Shown: one piece after another, positions 6,658-48,811 of the stretch | How the letters are laid out: the number at the start of each line of letters is the position of its first letter | Numbering within the stretch: position 1 is the first letter of the stretch | Assembly: GCA_017462035.1 (NCBI GenBank) | Contig: JAFTRY010000007.1 | Coordinates: forward strand, 81,048-145,047 | Length of the DNA stretch: 64,000 bases | Origin: Clostridia bacterium | Lineage (GTDB): Bacteria; Bacillota; Clostridia; Oscillospirales; CAG-272 | Reading direction: 5' to 3' | Translations under genes and position numbers: made by a program | The notes under the pieces: model-generated | Database searches by the model: none | Seen by the model: only the letters and a program-made list of their open reading frames with translations | What the model was told of the DNA's origin: nothing

Positions 6658-6734
<77 letters not shown>

Positions 6735-7128: not shown

Positions 7129-9012
7129 TTATTCTTCTTCCTCTGCGGGAATATACAGGTGGTAATCCTTCAACTTCATCTTCTTAAACTGTACGGTTCC
7201 GTAGTAAGTGAAGTCATACTTGGAAATTTCCTCACGAGCTAAGGTTGCATTCTGATTGAAGATAATCGGAATTACAGGAAGATCCTTCATTAAGATTGCC
7301 TCAGCTTCATGCAGAAGAGTTGCTCTTGTTGCCGCATCGGTTGCTTTGTATGCTGCCTCAATCTTCTGATTGTATTCTTCACTGTTGTAGCCGGTAATAT
7401 GTGTGGGAATTGCGAAATCGGCACTCTCCTCAGAGGTTGCTGCACCGCCAGTATAGTTCTTAGCGAGGGGAGCAAGAACAGAGAAAGCGTTTACACTGTA
7501 CGCCACGTAATCAATAGCGGCAACGTAGAACTTTCCAGCTCGATAATCCTCATAGAATACATCGTCCTTAACACCGGCAATGACTTCCTGAGTAGTCTTA
7601 TCATAGTGAACATTATCCGTTACGTCAATCGCATTAATCGCAATGTGGAATCCCAGAGATTCCCAAGCCGCCTGAACCATCTTTGCAATTTCCACATGAA
7701 CTTCATCATAAGAAGGAACAGAAATGGCAAACATATACTTGGAGGCATCTACACCGGCTGCGCTCAGCATCTGCTTTGCTTTATCAACATTTGCACCAGT
7801 GGCAAGAATATCACCGCCGACCGTACGGAACAGATCCTTCTTGGAATCGGTATTAAACACGCCGTAGGGAACCAATCCGGTTGCCGCTTTGGCAAACACA
7901 ACAGCCTTTGCAATTTCTTCACGGTTAATAGCAAGGGACATTGCCTCGCGAACAGCCTGATTTGCAAAAATTGCGTCTCCGTCGGTTCCTGCAACTAATT
8001 CATCCTTATATACGGTTTTAGAGGAAGTTAGCTTTTCAAAGGCACTTGCAGAATAGTAGGGAATCACCGCGTTTTCATTCAAAACGTAGGTATGAGTGCT
8101 GAGTGCATCGGTTACAGTTGCTTGATCCTTCCAGTTGCCGCGTACGGACAGGGGGATGTCACCCACGAAGAACAGCTGACCGTCGGAATATGCCTTCATA
8201 ATCTCTTCATCGGACATGGAGTAGTCAATAATCAGACGGTAGGGGGTTACGGATTTATCATACGCATCCTCCTCAATGTCGCGGTAATAGTAGGCGTTTC
8301 TTTCCATAACAATCTTTTCCGCACCGGGATCGTAAGAGATCTCTCGAATCTTGAAGGGACCGCTGGCAACCATGATCGCAGGAGTCTTTGCCCAGTCATA
8401 GTAATTGACTGCCTGACCAACGATATTTTCACGGAGGGGAGCCAAAGCTACGCTGGTAAGGTTACGCAGGAACGCATCGTAATCGATCTTACCTTCGAAG
8501 TAAATCTCGACCTGAGACTGGTTGATTGCGTACAGGCCAACATCATCAATAGAAGCATCGCCTTCCTTAGCGGCGCGGGCATTCTTGATGTCGTAAAGCA
8601 GAGCGGCAGCTTCAAAGGAATTCGCCACGTCCAAAATACGCTTCCAGGAATACACGACGTCATTGGCGGTGACGGCAATACCGTCAGACCAGAAGGTTTC
8701 GTTCAGAGTGATAATCATTCTGTATTCGTCTGCCTTCTCGTCCTCATAACTCTTATAATCCTTTGCCAAGGATTTCTTTACCTTTCCGTTCTCGTTAAGA
8801 ACGAACAGGTTGTCAAACATCAAACTGACAATCTTCAGTGCCGCCTCGTTTCCGTAAGCCATTGCAGGGTCGAAGCTGTAAACAAGGTCAGACAGATACA
8901 TCGTTACATACGCACCCTTGTCATCTTCATCTACTTCCTTCTTCGCGCAACCGGCAACAACAGGCAGAACCATCAATAAGCAAAGCAAAAGGGAAATGAT
9001 TCTTTTCATCAT
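7129..9012 (-). CDS. ABC transporter substrate-binding lipoprotein, family 5 (peptide/nickel type)
   Basis: Signal peptide with lipobox VVAGC, a size of 627 aa, and SBP_bac_5-like segments (LAKDYK..., WSDG..VTANDVVYSW). Confidence 0.85.
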   Translation of the reverse strand: MMKRIISLLLCLLMVLPVVAGCAKKEVDEDDKGAYVTMYLSDLVYSFDPAMAYGNEAALKIVSLMFDNLFVLNENGKVKKSLAKDYKSYEDEKADEYRMIITLNETFWSDGIAVTANDVVYSWKRILDVANSFEAAALLYDIKNARAAKEGDASIDDVGLYAINQSQVEIYFEGKIDYDAFLRNLTSVALAPLRENIVGQAVNYYDWAKTPAIMVASGPFKIREISYDPGAEKIVMERNAYYYRDIEEDAYDKSVTPYRLIIDYSMSDEEIMKAYSDGQLFFVGDIPLSVRGNWKDQATVTDALSTHTYVLNENAVIPYYSASAFEKLTSSKTVYKDELVAGTDGDAIFANQAVREAMSLAINREEIAKAVVFAKAATGLVPYGVFNTDSKKDLFRTVGGDILATGANVDKAKQMLSAAGVDASKYMFAISVPSYDEVHVEIAKMVQAAWESLGFHIAINAIDVTDNVHYDKTTQEVIAGVKDDVFYEDYRAGKFYVAAIDYVAYSVNAFSVLAPLAKNYTGGAATSEESADFAIPTHITGYNSEEYNQKIEAAYKATDAATRATLLHEAEAILMKDLPVIPIIFNQNATLAREEISKYDFTYYGTVQFKKMKLKDYHLYIPAEEEE

Positions 9013-36901: not shown

Positions 36902-37087
36902 ACCGAAACATCTCATACGGTAAAAATGCAGACTTTCGCAAATGATTGCGTGAGTCTTTTTTTGATGCTAATTTGCGAATGATGCGAATGGTAGCGACAC
37001 AAAAAACTTGACAAAAATACAAGGTCGGTGTTATACTATATGTATTGCTACTATATGATAAAGGAATTGGGGATAGGAATCAAAATC

Positions 37088-39616
37088 ATGAAAAAAATGT
37101 TAGTTGTTGACGGCAATAGTATTCTGAATCGGGCATTTTACGGAATTCGTTTGCTTACCAATAAAGATGGGCTTTATACCAACGCCGTTTACGGAATGAT
37201 AAATATTCTTTCCCGCCATCTGGAACAGCTCCATCCCGATTACTGTGCCGTGGCATTCGATTTAAAGGCACCTACGTTCCGCCACAAAATGTACGACGGC
37301 TATAAAGCAAACCGCAAAGGAATGCCGGATGAGTTAGCTGTTCAGCTTCCATATGCCAAGGAATGTATGAAGCATCTCGGGCTAAATGTAATCACCTGTG
37401 AAGGATATGAGGCAGATGACATCCTCGGAACACTGGCAGCCGTTTACGGAAAAGAGAATACACATGTATATATACTGACCGGTGACCGAGACTCCTTGCA
37501 ACTAATCACGCCCAATGTGTCGGTGTTGCTGGTGAAAACAAAAGAAACACTCGAAATGACTCCCGAGGCTTTTTTTGCGGAGTATGGTATCCCATCCTCT
37601 GAATTTGTTGATGTGAAAGCGCTGATGGGAGATAGCTCCGACAATATTCCCGGTGTGGCAGGAATTGGAGAAAAAACGGCACTGAAACTTATTGCGCAAT
37701 ACCATTCTATTGAGGAACTTTATGATGGTCTGACTACCTCTACGCTTACGGAAAATACCAAGAAAAAGCTTTTGGATGGAAAGGACATGGCTGAGCTTTC
37801 CCGTACGCTAGCAAAGATTTGCTGCGAGGTACCAATCGATACCGATCCAAGTCACTATCGCTATGAAGGTCCCAACGTGACAGAGCTGAGAGACTTGTTT
37901 GTTCAGCTTGATTTTACGGCTCTGATAAAAAAATTCGGGTTAGAGGACGCGGTTGAATCAAAGAAAACCGAAAGCCATCCAGAAGAAAAGCCGATCGTTT
38001 CGGTATGCCAATCCTTGAGCGAGCTAACAGGTACCCTCTGTTTTGTGTCGCTCTCAGAGAATACCGTTGAAATTTTTGATGGAGTCAACTATATCGAATG
38101 GCATTATCAAGAATGTGACGTATGTGATTGGAATAGATGGATCCAAGGTAAAAGCTTAGTTTGTCATGATTCTAAACAGCTATATAAAACTCTATCTTCT
38201 CTGGGACTCTCTATCCCTACGGTGTCCTTTGATATTATGCTTGCCGCCTACGTATTGGATTCGGGACGAACCAACTATTCCTTGGAGGAATTATGCATCC
38301 GTTATCTGAACGAACCTCTTTCTAAGGAAATGCCTATAACGCTCTCCCTGGCTCGGTTGTATCCGATTTTAAAGGGAGAAATCCAAAGCTCAAGATTTGA
38401 TTCACTTTTATATGAAATCGAAATGCCCCTGGCTTTGGTGCTGGCTGACATGGAACATCTTGGATTTAAAGTCGATTGCGACGGAATTGAGCGCTACGGC
38501 ATGGAATTAAAGGAAGCGGCGGATACCCTGCAGGAACGCATCTATTGCTATGCGGGAGAAGAATTCAATATCAGCTCTCCCAAACAATTGGGGGAGATCC
38601 TATTTGAAAAAATGAGTCTACCCAAATTTAAGAAAACCAAAACCGGATACTCTACCGATGCTGAAACGCTTCAAAAATTAATCCCGTATCACCCAATTAT
38701 CGAAGACATTCTGGATTACCGCCAAGTAACCAAGCTAAAGTCTACCTACGCTGACGGCTTAATCAAGGCGGCTGATTCAGAAAATCGAGTGCACAGTATA
38801 TTCAATCAAACCGGTACGGCAACCGGACGCCTCTCTTCCTCGGAGCCCAATTTGCAGAATATCCCCGTACGTACTGAATTGGGAAGGGAATTCAGGAAGT
38901 TCTTTATCCCAAAGAATAAGGATTATTTGCTGATTGATGCCGACTATTCTCAAATTGAATTGCGCCTTCTGGCACACATTGCCAATGATTCCGCCATGAT
39001 CGATCTATTCTTATCCGGAAAGGATATTCACACCATGACAGCGGCAAAGGTGTTTCATGTACCACCGGAACAGGTAACAGCTGATCTCCGCAAAAAGGCA
39101 AAAGCCGTCAATTTCGGTATTATGTACGGAATTGGAGAATATTCACTCTCCGAGGACCTATCCATTTCCCGTGCGGAAGCCAAAGAATACATCGAAAACT
39201 ATTTTGCCCAGTTTCCCAGTATCCGAGAGTATTTAGACCGAGTACAGGTCGAGGCAAAGGAAAGCGGTTACGCCACCACGTTTTTCGGACGAAGACGTTA
39301 TATTCCCGAAATCCTTTCCTCCAATAAAAATCTCCAACACTTTGGAGAGCGAGTCGCCATGAATAGTCCTATTCAGGGAAGTGCATCAGATATCATCAAA
39401 ATTGCCATGATCTCTGTCGCCAAAGAGCTTTCCGAAAGGAAGCTGGACGCGAGTCTCATTCTACAGGTACACGATGAACTGCTAATCGAGTCCCATAGGG
39501 ATTGCGCAGAAGAGGTACAGAAGATACTCATCAAGTGTATGGAAAGTGCCGCTGATTTGACCGTACCGCTATTGGTAGATGCTCATATCGGAAAGACATG
39601 GTTTGACGCAAAATAA
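37088..39616 (+). CDS. polA: DNA polymerase I
   Basis: 5' nuclease domain LVVDGNSILNRAFYG and GDSSDNIPGVAGIGEKTA. Polymerase motifs DYSQIELRLLAH, AKAVNFGIMYG and QVHDELL. Confidence 0.95.
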   Translation: MKKMLVVDGNSILNRAFYGIRLLTNKDGLYTNAVYGMINILSRHLEQLHPDYCAVAFDLKAPTFRHKMYDGYKANRKGMPDELAVQLPYAKECMKHLGLNVITCEGYEADDILGTLAAVYGKENTHVYILTGDRDSLQLITPNVSVLLVKTKETLEMTPEAFFAEYGIPSSEFVDVKALMGDSSDNIPGVAGIGEKTALKLIAQYHSIEELYDGLTTSTLTENTKKKLLDGKDMAELSRTLAKICCEVPIDTDPSHYRYEGPNVTELRDLFVQLDFTALIKKFGLEDAVESKKTESHPEEKPIVSVCQSLSELTGTLCFVSLSENTVEIFDGVNYIEWHYQECDVCDWNRWIQGKSLVCHDSKQLYKTLSSLGLSIPTVSFDIMLAAYVLDSGRTNYSLEELCIRYLNEPLSKEMPITLSLARLYPILKGEIQSSRFDSLLYEIEMPLALVLADMEHLGFKVDCDGIERYGMELKEAADTLQERIYCYAGEEFNISSPKQLGEILFEKMSLPKFKKTKTGYSTDAETLQKLIPYHPIIEDILDYRQVTKLKSTYADGLIKAADSENRVHSIFNQTGTATGRLSSSEPNLQNIPVRTELGREFRKFFIPKNKDYLLIDADYSQIELRLLAHIANDSAMIDLFLSGKDIHTMTAAKVFHVPPEQVTADLRKKAKAVNFGIMYGIGEYSLSEDLSISRAEAKEYIENYFAQFPSIREYLDRVQVEAKESGYATTFFGRRRYIPEILSSNKNLQHFGERVAMNSPIQGSASDIIKIAMISVAKELSERKLDASLILQVHDELLIESHRDCAEEVQKILIKCMESAADLTVPLLVDAHIGKTWFDAK

Positions 39617-39717
39617 ATGGATTGTTTGTTAAAAAATATTTTTTGGGTATTTTGGGTTTTATTTACTTAATTACTTAAAAAATATTGTGAAAAAATAAGC
39701 AAATTTCTAAAAAAATA

Positions 39718-39746
39718 TGGACAAAAATCGCTTTTTGTAGTATAAT
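39718..39746 (+). promoter_or_regulatory. Putative sigma-A promoter of the hydrogenase-sensor operon
   Basis: TGGACA - 17 nt - TATAAT with a TG at -15/-14. A leader of about 100 nt with a GATGGAGGA/TTCTCCATC hairpin follows. Confidence 0.5.
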
Positions 39747-39855
39747 GATCAGAGAGATGATGGAGGAGTTTGCGTATTTCTGTAGATTTCCGTTCTCCAT
39801 CCTTGTCCTGTGCGTGTTCGGCGAATCTGTTGTGAGTAAATAAAGGAGATTCAAA

Positions 39856-40221
39856 ATGCAAATACGAGAGATTGCGAAGCTTTTGAACGCAAAGGTGCTT
39901 TGCGGCGAGGAGCATTTGGACAGAGAAGTCAAATCCGCTTGTGGTTGCGATATGATGAGTGATGTTCTCGCGTTCGTAAAAGATCAAGCCGTGTTGATCA
40001 CAGGATTGTGCAACCCTCAGGTTGTTCGAACCGCGATGATGATGGATATGAGATGTATCGTTTTTGTGCGCGGAAAAAATCCGCCTCAGGAGGTTATTGA
40101 TCTGGCATGTAGTGCCGGAATTGTTGTTCTTGCGTCCGACGAAAGAATGTATACCGCTTGCGGTACGTTATATGTAAACGGTCTTGCCGGAGGTGCTGAG
40201 GTTCATGACAGAGCATGTTAA
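39856..40221 (+). CDS. DRTGG domain protein
   Basis: A 121 aa protein with GCDMMSDVLAF...VLITGLCNPQVVRTA, matching the DRTGG pattern. This is the usual first gene of [FeFe]-hydrogenase sensory clusters. Confidence 0.8.
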   Translation: MQIREIAKLLNAKVLCGEEHLDREVKSACGCDMMSDVLAFVKDQAVLITGLCNPQVVRTAMMMDMRCIVFVRGKNPPQEVIDLACSAGIVVLASDERMYTACGTLYVNGLAGGAEVHDRAC

Positions 40222-40627
40222 CTTTCACTTTGAAATAGATGGAGAAAATTTTACGTCCGCCGGAGAAGCATCGGTGCGAATTAAAAAGAATCTTCGTGAG
40301 ATGGGTTTCTCTCCTGAAATCATTCGACGCGTTTCAGTTGCCATGTATGAAGGCGAGATTAATATGGTAATTCATGCCAACGGCGGAACCGCTGACGTGG
40401 ATATTTATTGTGATCGGATCGAAATTGTTCTCTCTGATCGCGGTCCTGGGATTTCAAATATTGAACTCGCCATGCAAGAGGGATATTCTACAGCACCTGA
40501 AAATGTCCGCTCTCTTGGCTTTGGAGCAGGCATGGGGTTGCCGAATATGAAGCGTTACACCGACGATATGAAAATAGAATCAAAGGTAGGCGAAGGAACA
40601 ACCATTTCCATGACGGTTTGGGTTTAG
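40205..40627 (+). CDS. RsbW/SpoIIAB-like serine protein kinase (HATPase_c, anti-sigma regulatory factor type)
   Basis: N-box EGEINMVIHA, G1 DRGPGI and G2 GFGAGMGLPN. It overlaps the upstream gene by 17 nt. Confidence 0.8.
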   Translation: MTEHVNFHFEIDGENFTSAGEASVRIKKNLREMGFSPEIIRRVSVAMYEGEINMVIHANGGTADVDIYCDRIEIVLSDRGPGISNIELAMQEGYSTAPENVRSLGFGAGMGLPNMKRYTDDMKIESKVGEGTTISMTVWV

Positions 40628-40652
40628 ACGCTTGTCCTAAGAGGGGGTTACG

Positions 40653-41921
40653 ATGTCCCATAATAAACATTCGGTCACCCTGGATATATCAAAATGTAAA
40701 GGGTGCACCAATTGTATCAAGCGATGTCCAACGGAAGCGATTCGCGTCAGAGACGGTCATGCAGTTATAAAGGAAGACCGATGCATTGATTGCGGCGAGT
40801 GCATCCGTGTATGTCCCTATCAAGCAAAAAAAGCTACATACGATAAGTTTGAGGATTTCTCCCACTACCGCTACAAAATTGCCATTCCTGCCCCTGCCTT
40901 GTACGGGCAGTTTGAAGATCTGGAAGATGTAGATGAGGTGTTAACCGCTCTTCTTCAGTGCGGCTTTGATGCCGTTTTTGAGGTTTCTCGTGCTGCCGAA
41001 TTGGTAACGGAATACACCCGTCGTTATATGAAAAAATTGGACATAGAAAAACCGGTAATCAGTTCCGCATGTCCTGCAATTGTACGGTTGATCGCAATGC
41101 GTTTTCCTTATCTGAAAGATAATTTACTCCCCCTGCTTCCCCCCATTGAATATGCGGCAAGACTGGCTCGCAGAGAAGCTCAAGAAAGCCATCCCGATCT
41201 GACAGATGATGATATCTGCGTATTGTTTATTTCTCCGTGTCCCGCCAAGGTCAGCTATGTAAGAAATCCATTGGGCGTAGAGAAGAGTGCCGTATCAGGT
41301 ACTCTTGCCATTCATGATTTTTATTTTCGAATTCGTTCCAAGCGAAAGGAGATCACCACTCCGTTGCCCTTGTCTCAGACCGGGATTATCGGTTTAAACT
41401 GGGCAAGCTCGGGCGGAGAATCCACCTCTTTACTGTCCGATAAATATTTGGCGGCGGATGGAATTGAAAACTGTATTCATGTTTTGGACGAAATTGAAAA
41501 TGGAACTCTGCACAATCTGGAGTTCGTAGAATTGAATGCTTGTATCGGAGGCTGTGTGGGTGGAACTTTAAATGTTGAGAACCCCTTTATAGCAAAGGCA
41601 AGGCTGCGATCTCTCAGAAAGTATCTTCCCATTTCCCGAAATCACGCGGAAATATCGGAGCAAATTCCCAACGATCTGTTCCTCACATCCGATTTGGAGG
41701 TAGATGCTTCCTCCAAGCTGTCGGAGGATCGTATGACGGCAATCACAAAAATGGCAGCAATAGAACAAATTTACCGAACACTTCCTCATCTGGACTGCGG
41801 CTCCTGCGGAGCACCCAGTTGCCATGCCTTGGCGGAAGATATCGTCAAGGGAGAAGCCTCAGAAACCGATTGTCTGATTCAACTGCGCGAACATTTTGAG
41901 AAACAAGAACCGAATGTTTGA
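40653..41921 (+). CDS. Sensory [FeFe]-hydrogenase-like protein (HydS-type)
   Basis: Domain order is two ferredoxin-type 4Fe-4S sites, an H-cluster domain, then a C-terminal 4-Cys module. The ferredoxin sites are CKGCTNCIKRCP and CIDCGECIRVCP. The H-domain motifs are SSACPA, SPCPAKV and ELNACIGGCVGG. The C-terminal module is CGSCGAPSC...C. Confidence 0.85.
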   Translation: MSHNKHSVTLDISKCKGCTNCIKRCPTEAIRVRDGHAVIKEDRCIDCGECIRVCPYQAKKATYDKFEDFSHYRYKIAIPAPALYGQFEDLEDVDEVLTALLQCGFDAVFEVSRAAELVTEYTRRYMKKLDIEKPVISSACPAIVRLIAMRFPYLKDNLLPLLPPIEYAARLARREAQESHPDLTDDDICVLFISPCPAKVSYVRNPLGVEKSAVSGTLAIHDFYFRIRSKRKEITTPLPLSQTGIIGLNWASSGGESTSLLSDKYLAADGIENCIHVLDEIENGTLHNLEFVELNACIGGCVGGTLNVENPFIAKARLRSLRKYLPISRNHAEISEQIPNDLFLTSDLEVDASSKLSEDRMTAITKMAAIEQIYRTLPHLDCGSCGAPSCHALAEDIVKGEASETDCLIQLREHFEKQEPNV

Positions 41922-41936
41922 TAGGAGGCTCAGAGA

Positions 41937-42263
41937 ATGACCGTAAAAGAACTTGCAAAACAATTTGAATATGAGATTCTTTGTGTCCCTGATCCTGACA
42001 GAGAGGTAGAGGGCGGCTATACGGGTGATCTTCTCAGTTGGGTCATGGGACGGCTGGAGAGTGGAAACGCGTGGGTGACCATCATGTCCAACATCAACGT
42101 TATCGCCGTTGCTGCCTTGGCTGATCCTGCATGTATTATTCTTTCGGAGCAGGTAACACCGGATGAAGGTGTGTTAGAACGAGCCGAAGTTCAAGGAATC
42201 AATTTGCTCCGCACGTCAAAATCCAGTTTTGACGTTTGCGCGGAGCTCGCCTCGATATCATGA
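41937..42263 (+). CDS. DRTGG domain protein (second copy)
   Basis: A 108 aa protein with GYTGDLLSWVM...NINVIAVAALA. Confidence 0.8.
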   Translation: MTVKELAKQFEYEILCVPDPDREVEGGYTGDLLSWVMGRLESGNAWVTIMSNINVIAVAALADPACIILSEQVTPDEGVLERAEVQGINLLRTSKSSFDVCAELASIS

Positions 42264-42997
42264 ATCCCTATTATTATGATCTACATGTCCACTCCTGTCT
42301 GTCACCTTGTGCCGATGACGATATGACCCCCAACAACATTGTCGGCATGGCAGCGTTGAAAGGGCTTACGCTGTTAGCGCTAACCGATCACAATTCCTGT
42401 AAGAATTGCCCCGCTTTTTTTGATGCCTGTCGATCACAAGGGATCGTTCCTGTTGCCGGAATGGAGTTAACAACAGCCGAGGATATTCATCTACTTTGTC
42501 TCTTTGAACATTTGGAGGAAGCCATGGCTTTTGACAGGGAAGTAACGAAGCACTTAATGTCGGTGAAAAACCGCCCGGAGATCTTCGGGAATCAGTGGAT
42601 TTTAGATAATCAGGACGATATAATCGGTAAGGAAGAAAGGCTACTGATTTCCGCCACTGATCTTTGGATGGAAGATGCATTAGAGCTAGCCAAAAAATTC
42701 GGAGCTCACGTACATCCGGCTCATATTGACCGGGAATCAAACGGAATTGTTGCTATCCTGGGAAGTATTCCGGCTGAGTATGAATTTACCCATTTTGAAT
42801 TTAACTGTGCTTCCAATTTTAGTAGCTATCACGAGCGTTTTCCCTATCTTGAGACCACAAACGTGTTGATTTGCTCTGATGCGCATCATTTATGGGATAT
42901 TAACGAAGCGGAGCATTATTTGATGCTTGAGGATGAGCCATACAGCTCCTCCTTGGTTCGTAAAAAGTTGTTTGAATTGCTCACCAGGCGAAAATAA
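42260..42997 (+). CDS. PHP-domain metal-dependent phosphoesterase
   Basis: YDLHVHSCLSPC and ALTDHNS are PHP motifs. ATGA overlap with the upstream stop. Confidence 0.85.
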   Translation: MNPYYYDLHVHSCLSPCADDDMTPNNIVGMAALKGLTLLALTDHNSCKNCPAFFDACRSQGIVPVAGMELTTAEDIHLLCLFEHLEEAMAFDREVTKHLMSVKNRPEIFGNQWILDNQDDIIGKEERLLISATDLWMEDALELAKKFGAHVHPAHIDRESNGIVAILGSIPAEYEFTHFEFNCASNFSSYHERFPYLETTNVLICSDAHHLWDINEAEHYLMLEDEPYSSSLVRKKLFELLTRRK

Positions 42998-43057
42998 AAA
43001 CATTGGGATTTATTATTAAAAATAAATTAAAATAAAATATGGAGGATTTTTTTCATC

Positions 43058-43552
43058 ATGAAAAAGAATTTGACCACAGTAATGTTTCGTGGTACAAAGG
43101 CTCAGGAAGAGCAGCTTTATGCTGTAATTGATGAGTACCGCGACACACCCGGTGCCTTGATGCCCGTGCTTCAAAAAGCGCAGGATATTTACGGTTATCT
43201 ACCGTACGAGGTCCAACGTATGATTGCTTTGAGAATGGGAATTTCCATGGAAGAGGTTTACGGCGTTGCCACCTTCTACTCGCAGTTCGTATTGAACCCT
43301 AAGGGTGATGTCGCGATTGCTGTTTGTCTGGGAACCGCTTGCTATGTAAAGGGAAGCGGTGAGATCTTGGATAAGATCACGCAGATCCTCGGTTTACCTT
43401 CCGGCTCCACCACCTCTGACGGAAAGTACTCCCTGGAGGCTACCCGTTGTATCGGTGCCTGCGGACTCGCACCCGTTCTTACTATCAACAATGAAGTTTA
43501 CGGAAGATTGGTTCCTTCCGATATGGAAGGTATTCTTGCTAAATACAAATAA
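43058..43552 (+). CDS. hydC: NuoE-like [2Fe-2S] subunit of electron-bifurcating hydrogenase (HydC)
   Basis: ALMPVLQKAQDIYGYL, CLGTACYVKG and CIGACGLAP, which form the NuoE/Nqo2 cluster motif. Confidence 0.9.
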   Translation: MKKNLTTVMFRGTKAQEEQLYAVIDEYRDTPGALMPVLQKAQDIYGYLPYEVQRMIALRMGISMEEVYGVATFYSQFVLNPKGDVAIAVCLGTACYVKGSGEILDKITQILGLPSGSTTSDGKYSLEATRCIGACGLAPVLTINNEVYGRLVPSDMEGILAKYK

Positions 43553-43558
43553 TCGATT

Positions 43559-44122
43559 ATGAAGGAATTGTCTCTGAATATTTTGGACGTTGCAAAAAAT
43601 TCGGTGCGAGCAGGTGCATCACTGATTCACATTTCACTGATGACAGATACAAATGCTTGGTTGACCTTACGGATTGTAGATAACGGATGTGGGATGGATC
43701 ATGAAACACTTCACCGCGTAACAGATCCCTTTTACACCACAAGAACCACCCGAAAGGTGGGCTTAGGGTTGCCGCTGTTAAAGTTAGCAGCTGAACAAAC
43801 GGGAGGCTCGCTTTCCATTGAGTCATCTGTTCAGGTACCGCACAATGGAACCACACTGGAGGCAAGATTTGATACCAGTAGCATCGACTGTATGCCGCTG
43901 GGAGATATTATTTCCACCGTGTGCATCTTAATTGCGGGAAGTCCCGAGATTGATTTTGTCTTCACTGATTCATCGGACCACCACAGTGTATCCCTGGATA
44001 CGCGGGAGATCCGTCAGGTATTGGGTGACGGAATTTCTTTAGCAGAACCGGAGATTCAACAATGGATACAAGAATATTTAACAGAGCAATATACTTCAGA
44101 GTCTCAACAACAAACGGATTAA
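43559..44122 (+). CDS. Stand-alone HATPase_c (histidine-kinase-like ATPase) protein
   Basis: LNILDVAKNSVRAGA (N-box), DNGCGM (G1) and GLGLPLL (G2). It has no HisKA/DHp or sensor domain. Confidence 0.8.
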   Translation: MKELSLNILDVAKNSVRAGASLIHISLMTDTNAWLTLRIVDNGCGMDHETLHRVTDPFYTTRTTRKVGLGLPLLKLAAEQTGGSLSIESSVQVPHNGTTLEARFDTSSIDCMPLGDIISTVCILIAGSPEIDFVFTDSSDHHSVSLDTREIRQVLGDGISLAEPEIQQWIQEYLTEQYTSESQQQTD

Positions 44123-44150
44123 TTTTTTGAAAATAAATGGAGGAACTACT

Positions 44151-44525
44151 ATGAAATCTTTGGCGGAACTTGCCGCAATCAGAGAAAAGATGCAGAGCAA
44201 GGTCGTTATTCGCGAGGGGAATGCGACAACCAGAGTAGTGGTTGGTATGGCTACCTGTGGAATCGCGGCTGGGGCAAGACCTGTTTTGAATGCTTTTGTG
44301 GATAGCGTCAACAAAGAAGCACTGACCGACAAGGTTACTGTTACGCAAACTGGATGCATCGGTATTTGTCAGTATGAGCCCGTCGTGGAGGTTTTTGAAG
44401 AAGGCAAGGAAAAGGTTACTTACGTAAAACTGGATGCAGCAAAAGCGGTAGAGATCGTTGAGAAGCATTTGAAGGGCGGAAACGTAGTAACAGAATACAC
44501 CATTGGCGCTTACGAGAAAGACTAA
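44151..44525 (+). CDS. Thioredoxin-like [2Fe-2S] ferredoxin
   Basis: VVGMATCGIAAG and GCIGICQYEP. ATG at 44151 follows GGAGG. Confidence 0.85.
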   Translation: MKSLAELAAIREKMQSKVVIREGNATTRVVVGMATCGIAAGARPVLNAFVDSVNKEALTDKVTVTQTGCIGICQYEPVVEVFEEGKEKVTYVKLDAAKAVEIVEKHLKGGNVVTEYTIGAYEKD

Positions 44526-44552
44526 TTTGACGGAAAGGGTAAGGAAAGGAAA

Positions 44553-46370
44553 ATGATTAGATCACATGTTTTGATTTGTGGCGGTACCGGCTGTACCTCT
44601 TCCGGAAGTCTAAAGCTTCAGGAAGCCATGAACACCGAGCTTGCTACATATGGTCTGCAGGACGAGGTCAAGGTCGTCTTAACCGGATGCTTTGGTCTTT
44701 GCGCGCTGGGACCGGTTATGATTGTATATCCCGAAGGAACTTTCTACAGCAACGTAAAGCTTGAAGATATCCATGAAATTGTAGAAGAGCATCTGTTAAA
44801 GGGACGTCCCGTGGAGCGCCTCGTTTACCATGAGGCGAAGAGCGAGGATATTCACCACGCCACCTCTCTTTCTGAAACGACCTTCTATAAAAAGCAGAAG
44901 AGAGTCGCTCTGAGAAACTGCGGTGTCATTAACCCCGAAAACATTGACGAGTACATCGCAATGGATGGATACGCTGCACTGGGAAAGGTTCTGACCGAAA
45001 TGACTCCCGATGACGTAATCCAGACGATTCTGGACTCCGGTCTCCGCGGAAGAGGAGGCGGCGGATTCCCCACAGGTCTAAAATGGAAGTTTGCTTCCGG
45101 CAACCGAGGAAACGTTCAGAAATACATCGGCTGTAATGCGGACGAGGGAGATCCTGGCGCGTTCATGGATCGTTCCATTCTTGAGGGAGACCCCCACGCC
45201 GTTTTGGAGGCAATGGCGATTGCCGGATACGCAATCGGTGCCGACGAGGGCTATATTTATGTCCGCGCAGAGTATCCTATCGCAATTCACCGTTTGGAGG
45301 TTGCCATCAAGCAGGCGCGTGAATACGGTTTGCTGGGAAAGGATATTTTTGGAACAGGCTTTAACTTTGATATTCAGCTTCGCTTTGGTGCAGGTGCATT
45401 TGTATGCGGTGAGGAAACTGCCCTGATGACCTCTATCGAGGGTAATCGCGGTGAGCCTCGTCCTCGTCCTCCGTTCCCCGCAGTCAAGGGTCTGTTCGGT
45501 CAACCCACCGTTCTTAACAATGTTGAGACCTATGCCAATATTCCCCAGATCATTCTGAAGGGTGTTGATTGGTTCAAGTCTATGGGTACTGAAAAATCTA
45601 AAGGAACCAAAGTTTTTGCGCTTGGCGGTAAGATCACAAACACCGGCTTGGTGGAGGTTCCCATGGGAACGACTCTGCGTGAGGTAGTAGAAGAAATCGG
45701 TGGCGGTATTCCCACCGGAAAGAAATTCAAAGCAGCGCAAACCGGCGGTCCTTCCGGTGGATGTATCCCCGCATCCTTGATCGATACCCCCATCGACTAC
45801 GATAACCTGATTGCCATTGGATCTATGATGGGTTCGGGTGGATTGATCGTTATGGACGAGGACACCTGTATGGTTGACCTGGCACGCTTCTTCTTGGAGT
45901 TCACCGTGGATGAATCCTGCGGTAAATGTACTCCTTGCCGTGTAGGTACTCGGAGATTGCTGGAGATTCTGGATAAGATCATCGCCGGAAACGGTGAAAT
46001 GGAGGATCTTGACAGGCTGGAAGAGCTATCTAACTATATCAAGAGCGCGTCTTTGTGCGGTTTGGGTCAGACTGCTCCTAACCCTGTACTTTCCACGCTT
46101 CGTTACTTCAGAGATGAGTATGTTGCTCATATCGTGGACAAGAAGTGTCCCGCCGGCGTATGTAAGAGCCTGCTACAGTTCAAGATTGATGCGGATAAGT
46201 GTATCGGTTGCGGCATGTGTGCCAAGAACTGTCCTGCGGACGCAATCGCAAGAACGGATTATATTGCTCCCGGTCACAAGCTCGCTTCCTTCGCCATCGA
46301 TCCCAAGAAGTGCGTAAAGTGCGGAGCATGTATGGAAAAATGTAAGCCCCATGCAATTTATAAGGACTAA
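44553..46370 (+). CDS. hydB: NuoF-like NAD(H)/FMN-binding subunit of bifurcating hydrogenase (HydB)
   Basis: N-terminal 2Fe-2S region (CGGTGC...GCFGLC), GRGGGGFPTGLKW, ESCGKCTPCR, and two C-terminal 4Fe-4S ferredoxin motifs. Confidence 0.92.
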   Translation: MIRSHVLICGGTGCTSSGSLKLQEAMNTELATYGLQDEVKVVLTGCFGLCALGPVMIVYPEGTFYSNVKLEDIHEIVEEHLLKGRPVERLVYHEAKSEDIHHATSLSETTFYKKQKRVALRNCGVINPENIDEYIAMDGYAALGKVLTEMTPDDVIQTILDSGLRGRGGGGFPTGLKWKFASGNRGNVQKYIGCNADEGDPGAFMDRSILEGDPHAVLEAMAIAGYAIGADEGYIYVRAEYPIAIHRLEVAIKQAREYGLLGKDIFGTGFNFDIQLRFGAGAFVCGEETALMTSIEGNRGEPRPRPPFPAVKGLFGQPTVLNNVETYANIPQIILKGVDWFKSMGTEKSKGTKVFALGGKITNTGLVEVPMGTTLREVVEEIGGGIPTGKKFKAAQTGGPSGGCIPASLIDTPIDYDNLIAIGSMMGSGGLIVMDEDTCMVDLARFFLEFTVDESCGKCTPCRVGTRRLLEILDKIIAGNGEMEDLDRLEELSNYIKSASLCGLGQTAPNPVLSTLRYFRDEYVAHIVDKKCPAGVCKSLLQFKIDADKCIGCGMCAKNCPADAIARTDYIAPGHKLASFAIDPKKCVKCGACMEKCKPHAIYKD

Positions 46371-46382
46371 GAAAGGAGAACA

Positions 46383-48131
46383 GTGGAAATGGAAACCATT
46401 AACGTTAAAATTAACGGCGTAGAATATGCTGTACCCAAGGGTTCCACGGTTCTTGAGGCTGCTAAGGCGGCTAAGATAGACATCCCCACCCTTTGTTACT
46501 TGAAAGATATCAACGAAATCGGCGCATGCCGTCTGTGTCTCGTTGAAGTCTCTGAGGGAGGACGTCCCTTCCGTTTGGTTACCGCTTGCGTATATCCTGT
46601 AACCGAGGGAATGGAAGTTCTCACCAATACTCCCAAAATCAATAAATCCAGAAAGACCAACCTGGAGCTCTTGCTTTCCAACCATGACCGTCAGTGTCTG
46701 TCCTGTGTTCGTAGCACCACCTGTGAGTTGCAGAAGCTCTGTTTGGAGTACGGTGTTGACGAAAACAAGTTTGCAGGAGTGAAGAACGAATATAAGATTG
46801 ACCGTTCAACCCCTATTATTCGTGATAACAACAAGTGTATCCTCTGCCGTCGTTGTGTAGCAGCATGTCAGAAGGTTCAGGGAATCGGCGTGATCGGTGC
46901 CAATGACAGAGGCTTTGACACTCACATCGGCTCCATCTTCGAGCAGACCCTGTCCGAGACCAGCTGTATCAACTGCGGACAGTGTATCGTGGCATGTCCC
47001 GTTGGCGCGCTCTATGAGAGAGACGATACCGATAAGGTATTGGATGCCATCGCGGATCCCAACAAGCACGTCCTCATCTGTACCGCTCCCTCCGTGCGTG
47101 CGCAGATCGGCGAATGCTTCGGCTATGAGCCCGGTACCGACTGCGAGGGTAAGATGGTAGCAGCGCTGAAGCGTCTGGGCTTCGACGGTGTCTATGACAT
47201 GAACCTAACCGCTGACCTGACCATTATGGAAGAAGCAACCGAGTTCCTCGGAAGAGTAAAGAATGGCGGAGCACTCCCCATGATCACCTCTTGCTCTCCC
47301 GGATGGATCAAGTACTGTGAGCATTACTATCCTGAGTTTACCGAGAATCTGTCTACCTGTAAATCTCCTCAGCAGATGTTTGGCGCAATTGCCAAGACCT
47401 ACTACGCTGAGAAAATGGGATGGAAACCTGAGGATATCTTCTTCGTTTCCGCTATTCCTTGTACCGCCAAGAAGTTCGAGGTAGGGAGACCCGGTCAGTC
47501 CGCAGCAGGCGTACCTGACGTTGATGTAGCAATCACCACCCGTGAGGTTGGCAGAATGATCGCTAAAGCCGGTATCGATTTCAGATCTCTGGCTGACGAA
47601 GCATTTGACGATCCCTTCGCATTTGGAAGCGGAGCGGGAGCGATCTTTGGCGCAACCGGCGGTGTAATGGAGGCAGCACTCCGCACCGCGGCTGAGGTTA
47701 TCGAAAATAAGCCTCTTGAAAAGCTCGACTTCACCGAGGTCCGCGGCGTTGAGGGCGTGAAGACCGCTTCCTATAAGCTGGGTGACATTACCTTGAACGT
47801 AGCGGTAGCTTCCGGTACTGCTAATGCAAAGAAGGTTTTGGATGCTGTAAAGGCAGGTAAGCTTGACGTTCAGTTCATCGAAATCATGGCATGTCCCGGC
47901 GGATGCGTCAACGGTGGAGGTCAGCCCATTCAGCCTGCGGTTGTTCGCATGAACACTGACTTAAGAGCCGTTAGAGCCGCTGTTCTTTACAACGACGACG
48001 TGAACTGCGACGTTCGTAAGTCTCACGAGAACTCCGCTGTAAAGAAACTGTATGATGAGTTCTTTGGCGAGCCCAATAGCCATAAGGCACACGAGATTTT
48101 GCATACCCACTACGTAAAACGCGGTCTGTAA
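46383..48131 (+). CDS. hydA: [FeFe] hydrogenase catalytic subunit (HydA, group A trimeric type)
   Basis: N-terminal 2Fe-2S and His-ligated/4Fe-4S domains. H-cluster motifs are TSCSPGW, IPCTAKKFE and EIMACPGGCVNGGGQP. Confidence 0.92.
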   Translation: MEMETINVKINGVEYAVPKGSTVLEAAKAAKIDIPTLCYLKDINEIGACRLCLVEVSEGGRPFRLVTACVYPVTEGMEVLTNTPKINKSRKTNLELLLSNHDRQCLSCVRSTTCELQKLCLEYGVDENKFAGVKNEYKIDRSTPIIRDNNKCILCRRCVAACQKVQGIGVIGANDRGFDTHIGSIFEQTLSETSCINCGQCIVACPVGALYERDDTDKVLDAIADPNKHVLICTAPSVRAQIGECFGYEPGTDCEGKMVAALKRLGFDGVYDMNLTADLTIMEEATEFLGRVKNGGALPMITSCSPGWIKYCEHYYPEFTENLSTCKSPQQMFGAIAKTYYAEKMGWKPEDIFFVSAIPCTAKKFEVGRPGQSAAGVPDVDVAITTREVGRMIAKAGIDFRSLADEAFDDPFAFGSGAGAIFGATGGVMEAALRTAAEVIENKPLEKLDFTEVRGVEGVKTASYKLGDITLNVAVASGTANAKKVLDAVKAGKLDVQFIEIMACPGGCVNGGGQPIQPAVVRMNTDLRAVRAAVLYNDDVNCDVRKSHENSAVKKLYDEFFGEPNSHKAHEILHTHYVKRGL

Positions 48132-48208
48132 TTTCTGATCAATACTCCGGCAGAATTCCAGTTCTGCCGGAGTAAAAAAATATCAACGAAATAAGGGAAG
48201 GGAAAGCT

Positions 48209-48811
48209 ATGAAAGCACTGGAGCAAAAAATCATTTCCGAAGGAAAAATTTTTGAGGGAGACGTGTTGAAGGTAGATTGCTTTCTCAACCACCAGATTGA
48301 CGTTGCCTTTCTGAACGAGATTGGGAAAGAATTCTTCCGCTTATATCAACCCGAGGGCATTAATAAAATTTTGACCATTGAGGCATCCGGAATAGGAGTG
48401 GCTTGTGTAACGGCTTTGAATTTTGATCCGGCTCTCCCGGTTGTATTCGCAAAAAAAAGCTCCGCCAAAAACGTAGGAGCTAATTTATATCAATCAAAAG
48501 TAGAATCCTATACACATGGGCGGACATACGACGTAGTGGTTTCAAAGGATTATTTGAAGGAAAATGACCGTGTACTGATCATTGACGATTTTTTGGCAAA
48601 GGGAAGTGCTCTAATGGCACTGACAGACCTCTGCCGCCAAGCTAAAGCAACCGTGATCGGAATTGGAATCGTGATCGAAAAGGCATATCAAGGCGGAGGC
48701 GCACTTCTTCGTCAACAAGGATTCCGGATTGAGTCTTTGGCAAAAATTGAATCCATGAATACCGTCGACGGAATTATTTTTGCCAACCCCAACGAAACGA
48801 ACAGTAAATAA
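48209..48811 (+). CDS. xpt: Xanthine phosphoribosyltransferase
   Basis: MKALEQKIISEGKI..VLKVDCFLNHQID and the PRPP loop VLIIDDFLAKGSA. Confidence 0.9.
   Translation: MKALEQKIISEGKIFEGDVLKVDCFLNHQIDVAFLNEIGKEFFRLYQPEGINKILTIEASGIGVACVTALNFDPALPVVFAKKSSAKNVGANLYQSKVESYTHGRTYDVVVSKDYLKENDRVLIIDDFLAKGSALMALTDLCRQAKATVIGIGIVIEKAYQGGGALLRQQGFRIESLAKIESMNTVDGIIFANPNETNSK

What the first reader, a model, noticed from the sequence alone, without database searches (positions are those of the whole stretch)
39718..44122. Multi-component sensory module in front of and inside the HydABC operon, with no recognisable output or acceptor domain
**Seen in sequence.**
- The gene order is DRTGG, RsbW-like kinase, HydS-like sensory hydrogenase, DRTGG and PHP phosphoesterase, with overlapping or coupled junctions at 40205/40221 and 40260/42263-type ATGA joins (the second at 42260/42263).
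- Then come hydC, a stand-alone HATPase_c protein, a 2Fe-2S ferredoxin, hydB and hydA.

**Established knowledge.** Similar arrangements accompany bifurcating hydrogenases in Thermoanaerobacter- and Thermotoga-type clusters, and HydS-type proteins are thought to sense H2.

**Open point.**
- The cluster contains two kinase-type ATPases and a phosphoesterase.
- It has no STAS or anti-anti-sigma partner, no HisKA/DHp domain, no receiver domain and no DNA-binding protein.
- The phospho-acceptor and the regulatory output are therefore not evident.
- The two small DRTGG proteins are the only candidate partners.
Basis: partly seen in the sequence, partly recalled or inferred. Interest (0 to 1): 0.6.

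Follow-up and report, generated by a model that had tools for sequence, protein, structure and literature searches.

The report
H2-sensor signalling cassette beside bifurcating hydrogenase
This is the accessory gene cassette of a "group D" hydrogen-sensing [FeFe] hydrogenase, sitting in the operon of an electron-bifurcating hydrogenase; the gene arrangement is already known, but how the signal leaves the sensor is still unsolved, and comparison with related loci points to the two small DRTGG proteins and the first kinase as partners bound to the sensor.

Summary
**Observation.** Confirmed: ten tightly packed + strand genes follow a sigma-70-like promoter at 39718-39746. They are DRTGG-1, a SpoIIAB/RsbW-like ATPase (KIN1), a HydS-like [FeFe] hydrogenase, DRTGG-2, PHP, HydC, a histidine-kinase-type ATPase (KIN2), a 2Fe-2S ferredoxin, HydB and HydA.

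**Identity.** HydS meets every sequence criterion of group D (M2e, TamHydS type). This arrangement next to bifurcating hydrogenases is already published (PMC3561251, PMC8163306). A 2026 paper (PMC13104023) still calls for the interaction partners to be identified.

**What 160 related loci add.**
- DRTGG1-KIN1-HydS is a near-universal core (67/67 genomes; 53-55 of 56 distant loci).
- DRTGG2 and PHP are gained or lost together.
- No transcription factor, sigma factor, STAS or receiver gene is conserved nearby.
- Natural fusions exist: HydS::DRTGG2, DRTGG1::HydS, KIN1::HydS and PHP::KIN2.

**Protein-level results.**
- DRTGG-1 has the DRTGG fold, not a STAS fold.
- Both DRTGG paralogues carry a near-invariant D-x-x-S loop.
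- PHP's nearest solved relatives are nucleases and nucleotide phosphoesterases, not protein phosphatases.

**Best reading.** A self-contained sensor complex in which DRTGG takes the place of the PAS domain, with an output that is probably post-translational. The phospho-acceptor remains unproven.

**Verdict.** New member of a known kind, sitting on a real open question.

The parts
39718..39746 (+). Sigma-70-type promoter-like site (TGGACA-17-TATAAT) followed by a leader of about 100 nt
   Evidence: 11 of 12 positions match. The same -35/extended -10 pattern lies upstream of DRTGG1 in L001-L003, L005 and L009. The leader sequence is not conserved, there is no Rfam match and no Rex box.
39856..40221 (+). 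DRTGG-1, a 121-aa stand-alone DRTGG-domain protein
   Evidence: PF07085 at 41.9 bits. AF2 model pLDDT 85; Foldseek matches 2ioj (TM 0.78), 3l2b and the HPr kinase N-terminal domain, with no STAS structure among the 50 best listed. D32, S35, T49 and G50 are invariant or nearly so in 138 homologues; the D-M-M-S loop has pLDDT below 50. Fused to the N-terminus of HydS in P0282 and P0331.
40205..40627 (+). KIN1, a 140-aa SpoIIAB/RsbW-like GHKL serine-kinase/ATPase
   Evidence: PF13581 at 41.4 bits. TIGR01925 spIIAB scores 59.7 bits, below its 135 cutoff. Nearest solved structures are SpoIIAB 1tid/1til/1l0o/1th8 (E about 1e-6) and RsbW 6m36. N, G1 and G2 boxes and the QEGxSTA lid are conserved in 151 homologues. 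Overlaps DRTGG-1 by 17 nt. Fused to HydS in P0269.
40653..41921 (+). HydS-like group D (M2e) [FeFe] hydrogenase, 422 aa
   Evidence: Two N-terminal 4Fe-4S motifs, an H-domain and a C-terminal PF04060 domain with Cx2Cx4Cx16C; no PAS. H-cluster cysteines C140, C196, C297 and C301 are invariant. SSACP gives C299->Ala and SPCPAK gives M353->Ser, as described for TamHydS (PMC8163306). The family has 7399 50%-identity representatives at E<=1e-3.
41937..42263 (+). DRTGG-2, a 108-aa paralogue of DRTGG-1
   Evidence: PF07085 at 28.1 bits. 27% identical to DRTGG-1, E 8e-13. D31, S34 and T48 are invariant and N54 is kept in 123 of 124 homologues. Fused to the C-terminus of HydS in P0251, P0271, P0280, P0342, P0351, P0366 and P0374. 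P0271 was found on two independent assemblies.
42260..42997 (+). PHP-family metal-dependent phosphoesterase, 245 aa
   Evidence: PF02811 at 46.9 bits. H9, H11, D43, H44, E69, H77, H155, D207, H209 and C17 are invariant. Profile search of solved structures gives EndoQ 2e-11, RNase AM 1e-10, then 3e0f, TM0559 and Cv1693. ATGA overlap with DRTGG-2. Fused to KIN2 in L105 and L124.
43058..43552 (+). HydC (NuoE-like 2Fe-2S subunit)
   Evidence: PF01257 at 164 bits. In most relatives this gene lies before the cassette instead of after it.
43559..44122 (+). KIN2, 187 aa: a histidine-kinase-type ATP-binding (CA) domain plus an uncharacterised C-terminal alpha/beta domain, with no DHp
   Evidence: PF02518 at 56.3 bits. 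Nearest by sequence is the KinB CA domain 3d36, E 2e-9. N, G1, F and G2 boxes are conserved. AF2 pLDDT 86.8. Full-length Foldseek matches are the MutL/PMS2/topoisomerase VI-B N-terminal ATPases (180-205 columns), while histidine-kinase CA domains match only about 100 columns.
44127..44525 (+). Small thioredoxin-like 2Fe-2S ferredoxin (the HydD-type gene)
   Evidence: NF041612 and PF01257 hits, both below their cutoffs. In long related loci KIN2 accompanies the PHP-type variant.
44553..46370 (+). HydB (NuoF-like FMN/NAD subunit)
   Evidence: PF01512 at 153 bits, PF10589 at 122 bits.
46383..48131 (+). HydA, the catalytic group A [FeFe] hydrogenase of the bifurcating type
   Evidence: NF040763 at 859.6 bits against a 765 cutoff.
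48145..48172 (+). Perfect 11-bp hairpin just after the hydA stop codon; likely end of the operon
   Evidence: Read directly from the sequence. It is followed by an A-run rather than a T-run, so the terminator scan did not list it.

Best explanation
**Shown.**
- The region is the signalling cassette of a group D (M2e, TamHydS-type) putative H2-sensing [FeFe] hydrogenase.
- It lies in one tightly packed gene block with a HydABC-type electron-bifurcating hydrogenase, behind a strong housekeeping-type promoter.

**Inferred architecture.** The accessory proteins form one multi-protein sensor complex rather than a linear pathway.
- DRTGG-1 and DRTGG-2 dock on HydS. DRTGG-2 occupies the position after the C-terminal [4Fe-4S] domain, where group C HydS carries its PAS domain.
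- KIN1 is paired with DRTGG-1.
- The PHP esterase, together with KIN2, is paired with DRTGG-2.
- The indispensable core is DRTGG1-KIN1-HydS.

**Inferred mechanism.**
1. H2 binding at the H-cluster changes HydS conformation, as reported for TamHydS.
2. The DRTGG domains pass this change to KIN1, an ATP-dependent SpoIIAB-like switch.
3. KIN1 then binds and/or phosphorylates the near-invariant serine of the flexible D-x-x-S loop of the DRTGG proteins (Ser35 in DRTGG-1, Ser34 in DRTGG-2).
4. Where present, the PHP enzyme resets the state.

**Inferred output.** No DNA-binding protein, sigma factor, STAS or receiver travels with the cassette, and the operon has a constitutive-looking promoter. The output is therefore most likely post-translational, acting on the co-encoded HydABC or on an unlinked target.
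For: - **Identity.** Domain scans; the invariant H-cluster and C-terminal cysteines; C299->Ala and M353->Ser, as in TamHydS (PMC8163306).
- **Operon.** All gaps are 60 nt or less, with two overlapping junctions. The promoter is conserved in close relatives.
- **Core and accessory parts.** KIN1 and DRTGG1 lie upstream of HydS in 67/67 genomes, and in 55/56 and 53/56 distant loci. Downstream of HydS in the distant set, DRTGG2 and PHP are both present in 27 loci, both absent in 24, and PHP alone in 1. The five-gene block moves as a unit relative to hydC and can stand alone (L071, L126).
- **Physical association.** Natural fusions: HydS::DRTGG2 in seven 50%-identity clusters, one of them on two independent assemblies; DRTGG1::HydS in two; KIN1::HydS in one; PHP::KIN2 in one clade.
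- **Candidate acceptor.** D and S of the D-x-x-S loop are kept in 136-137 of 138 DRTGG1 and in all 124 DRTGG2 sequences. The loop is the only internal low-confidence segment of the model. It falls outside the profile alignments to the solved DRTGG proteins, so it may be specific to this subfamily.
- **KIN1 competence.** ATP-binding motifs are conserved; nearest structures are SpoIIAB and RsbW.
- **No cis output.** No conserved flanking family (best 9 of 80 loci). Distant variants carry only hydCBA or nfnAB next to the triad.
- **Literature.** An H2-induced secondary-structure change is reported for TamHydS, and its partners are stated to be unknown (PMC13104023).
Against: - No experiment shows phosphotransfer, complex formation or H2 dependence for any of these proteins.
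- DRTGG-1 does not have the STAS fold of known SpoIIAB/RsbW substrates.
- About half of the distant loci lack PHP, so a dedicated reset phosphatase is not universal.
- PHP's closest solved relatives act on nucleic acids or nucleotides.
- In P0282's locus KIN1 is absent and KIN2 sits next to DRTGG1::HydS. In P0269's locus no DRTGG1 gene lies upstream. The parts are therefore interchangeable to a degree that a strict kinase-substrate pairing does not predict.
- The near-invariant loop could equally be a docking surface or a ligand site.
- No complex model could be built here.
Confidence: 0.45

Rival explanations
1. Classical partner switching to an unlinked factor. KIN1 acts as an anti-sigma factor or anti-regulator, like SpoIIAB or RsbW. 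HydS and the DRTGG proteins capture or release KIN1 according to H2, and a sigma factor or regulator encoded elsewhere changes transcription of fermentation genes.
For: KIN1's nearest solved relatives are anti-sigma F factor SpoIIAB and RsbW, and TIGR01925 is its best NCBIfam hit. In group C systems, loss of the HydS homologue hfsB shifts fermentation products and gave evidence of regulation (PMC5707799).
Against: No sigma factor, STAS or PP2C gene is conserved in 160 loci. KIN1 scores far below the SpoIIAB and RsbW equivalog cutoffs (59.7 against 135). DRTGG-1 is not STAS-like. The operon promoter looks sigma-A-type. Whole genomes could not be profiled here.
Confidence: 0.2
2. The output is directed at a nucleotide or at RNA. 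The PHP enzyme (EndoQ/RNase AM/pAp-phosphatase-like), with the MutL-like ATPase KIN2, hydrolyses a nucleotide signal or an RNA such as the operon transcript. The DRTGG domains, whose fold resembles UDP-binding N-terminal domains, bind a nucleotide. H2 sensing is thereby linked to nucleotide or mRNA turnover rather than to protein phosphorylation.
For: The PHP profile hits EndoQ (2e-11), RNase AM (1e-10), 3e0f and Cv1693, with no protein phosphatase listed. The full-length KIN2 model best matches GHL ATPases that partner with nucleases. PHP::KIN2 fusions exist. DRTGG-1's weaker fold matches include the LpxD and Mur-ligase-type N-terminal domains.
Against: The PHP matches rest largely on the generic N-terminal metal motifs (about the first 100 residues). 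By sequence KIN2 is a histidine-kinase CA domain. The core triad works without PHP or KIN2 in about half of the distant loci. No nucleic-acid-binding domain was detected.
Confidence: 0.15
3. Not a sensor. HydS is a slow catalytic or electron-entry hydrogenase attached to HydABC, and the small proteins are assembly, maturation or stabilising factors.
For: TamHydS is catalytically active, though slow (PMC8163306). The cassette is embedded inside the structural operon in most relatives. [quoted passage not shown]
Against: Two conserved ATP-binding GHKL proteins and a metallo-phosphoesterase are not expected of assembly factors. The cassette occurs without hydABC nearby (L071, L126). The loss of the proton-transfer cysteine and the high H2 affinity fit sensing (PMC8163306).
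Confidence: 0.1

Closest known systems
Group D (M2e) [FeFe] hydrogenase loci: TamHydS of Thermoanaerobacter mathranii; TTE0887, Teth39_1463, Cthe_0335, Athe_1292, Csac_1857, Cphy_3798
   Same: The same HydS domain layout and active-site substitutions. The same position next to an A1-type trimeric bifurcating hydrogenase with a kinase-like gene in between (PMC3561251, PMC8163306). C. thermocellum likewise has a 'histidine kinase' gene, Cthe_0339, inside hydC-...-hydA (PMC3990059).
   Different: This copy comes from an uncultured gut or rumen Clostridia lineage (nearest loci). Here hydC lies after the cassette, whereas most relatives have it before. In the searchable literature the DRTGG and PHP genes are not discussed with hydrogenases.
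Group C (M2f) sensory hydrogenases: TmHydS, R. albus HydS, HfsB of Thermoanaerobacterium
   Same: A putative H2 sensor with N-terminal 4Fe-4S clusters, a modified H-domain and the C-terminal Cx2Cx4Cx16C cluster. Encoded beside catalytic hydrogenases and Ser/Thr kinase or phosphatase genes. The downstream target is likewise unknown (PMC5707799, PMC11837493).
   Different: Group C carries a fused PAS domain and serine-phosphatase-type partners. Here a DRTGG domain, separate or fused, sits where PAS would be, and a PHP esterase replaces that phosphatase.
SpoIIAB/SpoIIAA/SpoIIE and RsbW/RsbV/RsbU partner-switching modules
   Same: KIN1 is a small GHKL protein with the SpoIIAB-type N box, G boxes and lid. 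It is encoded overlapping a small alpha/beta partner protein, with a phosphoesterase nearby.
   Different: No STAS antagonist, PP2C phosphatase or sigma factor is present. The partner has a DRTGG fold. Some lineages fuse KIN1 to the sensor itself.
[NiFe] regulatory hydrogenase system HoxBC-HoxJ-HoxA of Ralstonia eutropha
   Same: A hydrogenase used as an H2 sensor in complex with a kinase that controls hydrogenase expression (as summarised in PMC5707799).
   Different: Unrelated metal site and proteins. HoxJ is a complete histidine kinase and HoxA a DNA-binding response regulator; neither element exists here.

Membership tests
Group D (M2e, TamHydS-type) [FeFe] hydrogenase | H-domain with the four H-cluster cysteines | tested here: met
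   Fe_hyd_lg_C at 101.9 bits. C140, C196, C297 and C301 are invariant in 42 diverse homologues.
Group D (M2e, TamHydS-type) [FeFe] hydrogenase | Two N-terminal [4Fe-4S] motifs, a C-terminal Cx2Cx4Cx16C motif, and no PAS domain | tested here: met
   Fer4 hits at residues 9-58. PF04060 at 377-408, with the motif CGSCGAPSC-x16-C read from the sequence. No PAS hit.
Group D (M2e, TamHydS-type) [FeFe] hydrogenase | Proton-transfer Cys299 missing; Met353 replaced by Ser or Thr | tested here: met
   SSACP gives Ala at the C299 position and SPCPAK gives Ser at the M353 position, read. Criteria taken from PMC8163306.
Group D (M2e, TamHydS-type) [FeFe] hydrogenase | Actually senses H2 and signals | not testable with these tools
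   Only proposed even for TamHydS (PMC8163306, PMC13104023).
Partner-switching module (RsbW/SpoIIAB type) | GHKL serine kinase/anti-sigma factor | tested here: inconclusive
   KIN1 matches PF13581, and SpoIIAB/RsbW structures at E 1e-6 to 1e-3. It scores 59.7 against the 135 equivalog cutoff.
Partner-switching module (RsbW/SpoIIAB type) | STAS-domain antagonist, PP2C phosphatase and sigma factor | tested here: not met
   None in the ten proteins and none conserved in 160 loci. DRTGG-1's fold is not STAS.
Two-component system | HisKA/DHp domain with a phospho-histidine, and a receiver domain | tested here: not met
   KIN2 has only the CA domain (N, G1, F and G2 boxes). No histidine of its C-terminal domain is invariant; the window has Ser where most homologues have His. 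No receiver domain is present.
DRTGG domain family (PF07085) | Profile match above the Pfam cutoff, and the fold | tested here: met
   41.9 and 28.1 bits against a 25.2 cutoff. Model against 2ioj gives TM 0.78. The canonical TGGDR motif is kept only as T-G; GDR is replaced by L-x-N.
PHP phosphoesterase family (PF02811) | Profile match and a complete set of metal ligands | tested here: met
   46.9 bits against a 26.4 cutoff. H9, H11, D43, H44, E69, H77, H155, D207 and H209 are invariant.
PHP-type protein phosphatases (CpsB/YwqE) | Sequence relationship to the protein tyrosine phosphatase branch | tested here: not met
   A profile search of solved structures lists EndoQ, RNase AM, 3e0f, TM0559, Cv1693, PolC, HisJ and YcdX, but no CpsB or YwqE at E<=0.1.
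HydABC electron-bifurcating hydrogenase | NuoE-like, NuoF-like and group A HydA subunits in one operon | tested here: met
   PF01257 at 164 bits; TIGR01959 at 506.7 bits (below its 558.65 cutoff); NF040763 at 859.6 bits against 765. Bifurcating activity itself is not testable here.

The most novel reading that the evidence does not exclude
DRTGG domains are a so far unrecognised signal-transmitter module for [FeFe]-hydrogenase H2 sensors, functionally replacing PAS. The six proteins DRTGG1, KIN1, HydS, DRTGG2, PHP and KIN2 form a self-contained, H2-controlled ATP-dependent switch. This switch would act directly on the bifurcating hydrogenase complex, or on its transcript through the nuclease-like PHP enzyme, with no transcription factor. 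That would be a new kind of bacterial gas-sensing pathway.
Probability: 0.3. Interest if true: 0.75.

Novelty: new member of a known kind. Interest (0 to 1): 0.5.

Why it matters
Bifurcating [FeFe] hydrogenases set the H2 balance of gut, rumen and biofuel fermentations. How cells sense H2 and adjust these enzymes is unknown. HydS-type sensors are very widespread: 7399 clusters at 50% identity.

For group D enzymes, the field has explicitly asked which proteins interact with the sensor (PMC13104023). The comparative data here give a concrete, testable answer:
- a DRTGG1-KIN1-HydS core;
- a DRTGG2-PHP(-KIN2) accessory arm;
- a near-invariant serine loop to mutate.

The window itself adds only one more copy of a known arrangement.

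Tried and rejected
- **Rex operator.** TTGTGAA-N6-TTCACAA with up to 3 mismatches gave no site near the operon, and fewer hits than chance in the whole window.
- **Leader RNA or riboswitch.** No Rfam match across 39400-48400 at E<=1. The leader sequence is not conserved among close relatives.
- **A conserved regulator gene beside the block.** Clustering 527 flanking ORFs from 80 genomes found nothing shared by more than 9 loci. The 277-aa and 470-aa genes recurring in distant loci look like NfnA/NfnB by inspection of their sequences; they were not scanned, and they are not regulators.
- **Anti-phage defence reading.** No PADLOC hits for the five accessory proteins.
- **A phospho-histidine in KIN2's C-terminal domain.** The commonest histidine there is a serine in the window.
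- **PHP as a CpsB/YwqE-type protein phosphatase.** Not supported by profile search.
- **Literature.** Searches for DRTGG or PHP together with hydrogenases returned nothing relevant. No paper on phosphorylation by these kinases was found.

Full report
**1.

Ten + strand ORFs run from 39856 to 48131. No gap exceeds 60 nt and two junctions overlap. Pfam and NCBIfam scans give the following.

| Gene | Coordinates | Assignment |
|---|---|---|
| DRTGG-1 | 39856-40221 | PF07085, 41.9 bits |
| KIN1 | 40205-40627 | PF13581 HATPase_c_2; best NCBIfam hit spoIIAB, 59.7 bits against a 135 cutoff |
| HydS-like | 40653-41921 | Fe_hyd_lg_C, two Fer4 motifs, PF04060 |
| DRTGG-2 | 41937-42263 | PF07085, 28.1 bits |
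| PHP | 42260-42997 | PF02811, 46.9 bits |
| HydC | 43058-43552 | NuoE-like |
| KIN2 | 43559-44122 | HATPase_c, 56.3 bits |
| Ferredoxin | 44127-44525 | thioredoxin-like 2Fe-2S |
| HydB | 44553-46370 | NuoF-like |
| HydA | 46383-48131 | NF040763, 859.6 bits against a 765 cutoff |

- The 17-nt DRTGG-1/KIN1 overlap and the ATGA junction at 42260-42263 are in the sequence.
- A perfect 11-bp hairpin at 48145-48172 follows hydA.
- None of the ten proteins has a STAS, HisKA, receiver or helix-turn-helix domain.

**2. What the sensor is**

The 422-aa protein has:
- two N-terminal [4Fe-4S] motifs;
- an H-domain whose four cluster cysteines are invariant among 42 diverse homologues;
- a C-terminal Cx2Cx4Cx16C motif;
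- no PAS domain.

Its SSACP and SPCPAK motifs put Ala at the proton-transfer Cys299 position and Ser at Met353. These are the features Land et al. use to define the M2e/group D enzyme TamHydS (PMC8163306).

The family is large. There are 7399 representatives at 50% identity with E<=1e-3, and more than 8000 close proteins, with an identical copy in a 'Clostridia bacterium' metagenome-assembled genome.

**3. What is already known**

- Carere et al. (PMC3561251) list group D M2e genes upstream of A1-type trimeric bifurcating hydrogenases. The organisms are Caldanaerobacter, Thermoanaerobacter, Caldicellulosiruptor, C. thermocellum and C. phytofermentans. They call them sensory because of the neighbouring protein kinases.
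- Thermotoga has the PAS-containing group C type instead.
- C. thermocellum also has a 'histidine kinase' gene inside hydC-...-hydA (PMC3990059).
- Land et al. ask how signal transduction is achieved without PAS (PMC8163306).
- A 2026 study shows the C-terminal cluster does not respond to H2. It states that identifying the interaction partners is critical (PMC13104023).
- Full-text searches found no paper linking DRTGG or PHP domains to hydrogenases.

The arrangement is therefore known, the mechanism is open, and the small accessory proteins are essentially undiscussed.

**4. Comparative evidence gathered here**

I fetched 80 species genomes (HydS 51-80% identical, mostly gut and rumen Oscillospirales-type assemblies). 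I also fetched 80 distant metagenome loci anchored on a 33%-identical family member.

*Genome set*
- DRTGG1 and KIN1 lie directly upstream of HydS in 67/67 loci.
- DRTGG2 and PHP lie directly downstream in 72/73.
- The five genes move as one block. In most relatives hydC precedes the block, so PHP abuts KIN2. In the window type hydC follows it.
- Clustering all flanking ORFs found no other conserved neighbour; the best family occurs in 9 of 80 loci.

*Distant set*
- KIN1 (55/56) and DRTGG1 (53/56) persist upstream of HydS.
- Downstream, DRTGG2 and PHP are both present in 27 loci, both absent in 24, and PHP alone in 1.
- Variant gene orders are DRTGG2-DRTGG1-KIN1-HydS-hydCBA and hydCBA-nfnA-nfnB-DRTGG1-KIN1-HydS. 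The nfnAB assignment is by inspection of the sequences only.
- Free-standing five-gene cassettes also occur (L071, L126).
- In long loci KIN2 accompanies PHP, and the ferredoxin gene appears alongside it.

The core is therefore DRTGG1-KIN1-HydS, with DRTGG2-PHP(-KIN2) as an accessory arm.

**5. Natural fusions**

| Fusion | Examples | Support |
|---|---|---|
| HydS::DRTGG2 (C-terminal) | P0251, P0271, P0280, P0342, P0351, P0366, P0374 |. The identical P0271 protein lies on an NCBI genome contig and a separate JGI metagenome contig, in the order DRTGG1-KIN1-HydS::DRTGG2, a 220-aa gene without Pfam hit, KIN2 |
| DRTGG1::HydS (N-terminal) | P0282, P0331 | P0282 lies in the order PHP-KIN2-DRTGG1::HydS-hydC, without KIN1 |
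| KIN1::HydS | P0269 | A single contig only |
| PHP::KIN2 | L105, L124 | One metagenomic clade |

These fusions argue that the DRTGG proteins and KIN1 bind HydS, and that PHP works with KIN2. DRTGG-2 sits exactly where group C enzymes carry PAS, after the C-terminal cluster domain.

**6. The individual proteins**

*DRTGG proteins*
- DRTGG-1 and DRTGG-2 are paralogues: 27% identity, E 8e-13.
- The DRTGG-1 model (pLDDT 85) matches the DRTGG structures 2ioj (TM 0.78) and 3l2b. It also matches the HPr kinase N-terminal domain and, more weakly, LpxD/Mur-ligase-type N-terminal domains.
- No STAS structure appears among the 50 best matches.
- Across 138 DRTGG1 and 124 DRTGG2 sequences, the D and S of a D-[LM]-[LM]-S loop and a Thr at the end of strand 4 are invariant or nearly so.
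- The T-G pair is shared with the canonical TGGDR motif of AF1212. The D-x-x-S loop falls outside the profile alignments to the solved DRTGG proteins. It is also the only internal low-confidence segment of the model.
- This makes Ser35 and Ser34 the best phospho-acceptor candidates. A docking surface or ligand site would look the same.

*KIN1*
- It aligns with SpoIIAB over the N box, G1 box, lid and G2 box.
- These motifs are conserved even in the distant set.

*KIN2*
- By sequence it is a histidine-kinase CA domain with N, G1, F and G2 boxes, but it has no DHp.
- Its model (pLDDT 86.8) aligns over its full length best with the N-terminal ATPase fragments of MutL, PMS2, MLH1 and topoisomerase VI-B. 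Histidine-kinase CA domains cover only about 100 columns.
- Its C-terminal domain has no invariant histidine.

*PHP*
- It keeps a full set of metal ligands.
- A profile search of solved structures finds EndoQ (2e-11), RNase AM (1e-10), 3e0f, TM0559 and the pAp phosphatase Cv1693.
- No CpsB/YwqE-type protein phosphatase is listed.

**7. Regulation of the operon itself**

- Close relatives share the -35/extended -10 promoter but not the leader sequence.
- There is no Rex box and no Rfam match.
- No strong internal promoter or terminator was found. A weak promoter in the AT-rich 60-nt gap before hydC cannot be excluded.
- Together with the absence of any DNA-binding partner, this favours a post-translational output. 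That step is an inference.

**8. Explanation and rivals**

*Best reading (confidence about 0.45).* This is a self-contained sensor complex.
- HydS is flanked by DRTGG adaptors that couple it to KIN1 and to PHP/KIN2.
- The H2-induced conformational change reported for TamHydS (PMC13104023) switches KIN1's binding to, or phosphorylation of, the D-x-x-S loops.
- PHP resets the state where it is present.
- The target is HydABC or an unlinked protein.

*Rivals.*
- Classical partner switching to an unlinked sigma factor or regulator (0.2).
- A nucleotide- or RNA-directed output through the nuclease-like PHP and the MutL-like ATPase (0.15).
- A non-sensory catalytic or assembly role (0.1).

None can be excluded without biochemistry.

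**9. Verdict**

- The system is a new copy of a published arrangement, not a new kind.
- The added value is a sharpened, testable partner map and the correction that 'kinase plus phosphatase plus acceptor' is only one of several readings.
- Interest 0.5.

Noticed in passing
window 49738-51215: A PqqD-family protein (50471-50734; PF05402, 58 bits) lies between two proteins with no Pfam hit. One is 236 aa with a P-loop-like GTGKST motif; the other is 162 aa with a GTSMLP motif that resembles S24/S26 peptidases. This may be a small peptide-modification (RiPP-type) cluster.
   Followed up: partly
L001-L080: In most related genomes hydC lies before the five-gene cassette, giving hydC, cassette, KIN2, ferredoxin, hydB, hydA. 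The cassette is then embedded inside the structural operon. The window has the minority order.
   Followed up: yes
L119, L122, L127 (about 4900-7200 in each locus): Distant relatives place genes that look like nfnA (277 aa) and nfnB (about 470 aa) between hydCBA and the DRTGG1-KIN1-HydS triad. This links the sensor to a second bifurcating enzyme. These loci lack DRTGG2, PHP, KIN2 and the small ferredoxin. The nfnAB assignment is by inspection only.
   Followed up: partly
L126 6501-10447: A free-standing five-gene cassette lies directly behind a gene that resembles a [NiFe]-hydrogenase maturation protease. PAS histidine kinases and response regulators are nearby, and no hydABC is present.
   Followed up: no
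window 48145-48172: A perfect 11-bp hairpin lies after hydA. It is followed by an A-run rather than a T-run, so it is not a textbook intrinsic terminator on this strand.
   Followed up: no
P0198, P0408, P0487: Public annotations are inconsistent. A DRTGG-1 homologue is named 'predicted transcriptional regulator', although the window's DRTGG-1 shows no DNA-binding domain in Pfam. KIN2 homologues are named 'sensor histidine kinase' or 'anti-sigma regulatory factor'. The 'AraC family regulator' reported next to TamHydS (PMC8163306) may be a similar annotation transfer.
   Followed up: no
window 37028-39616: DNA polymerase I lies directly upstream. The listed GTG start adds a hydrophobic N-terminal extension, so the real start is probably the internal MKKMLVVDG. 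polA is adjacent in only 5 of 80 related loci, so it is not linked to the cassette.
   Followed up: no
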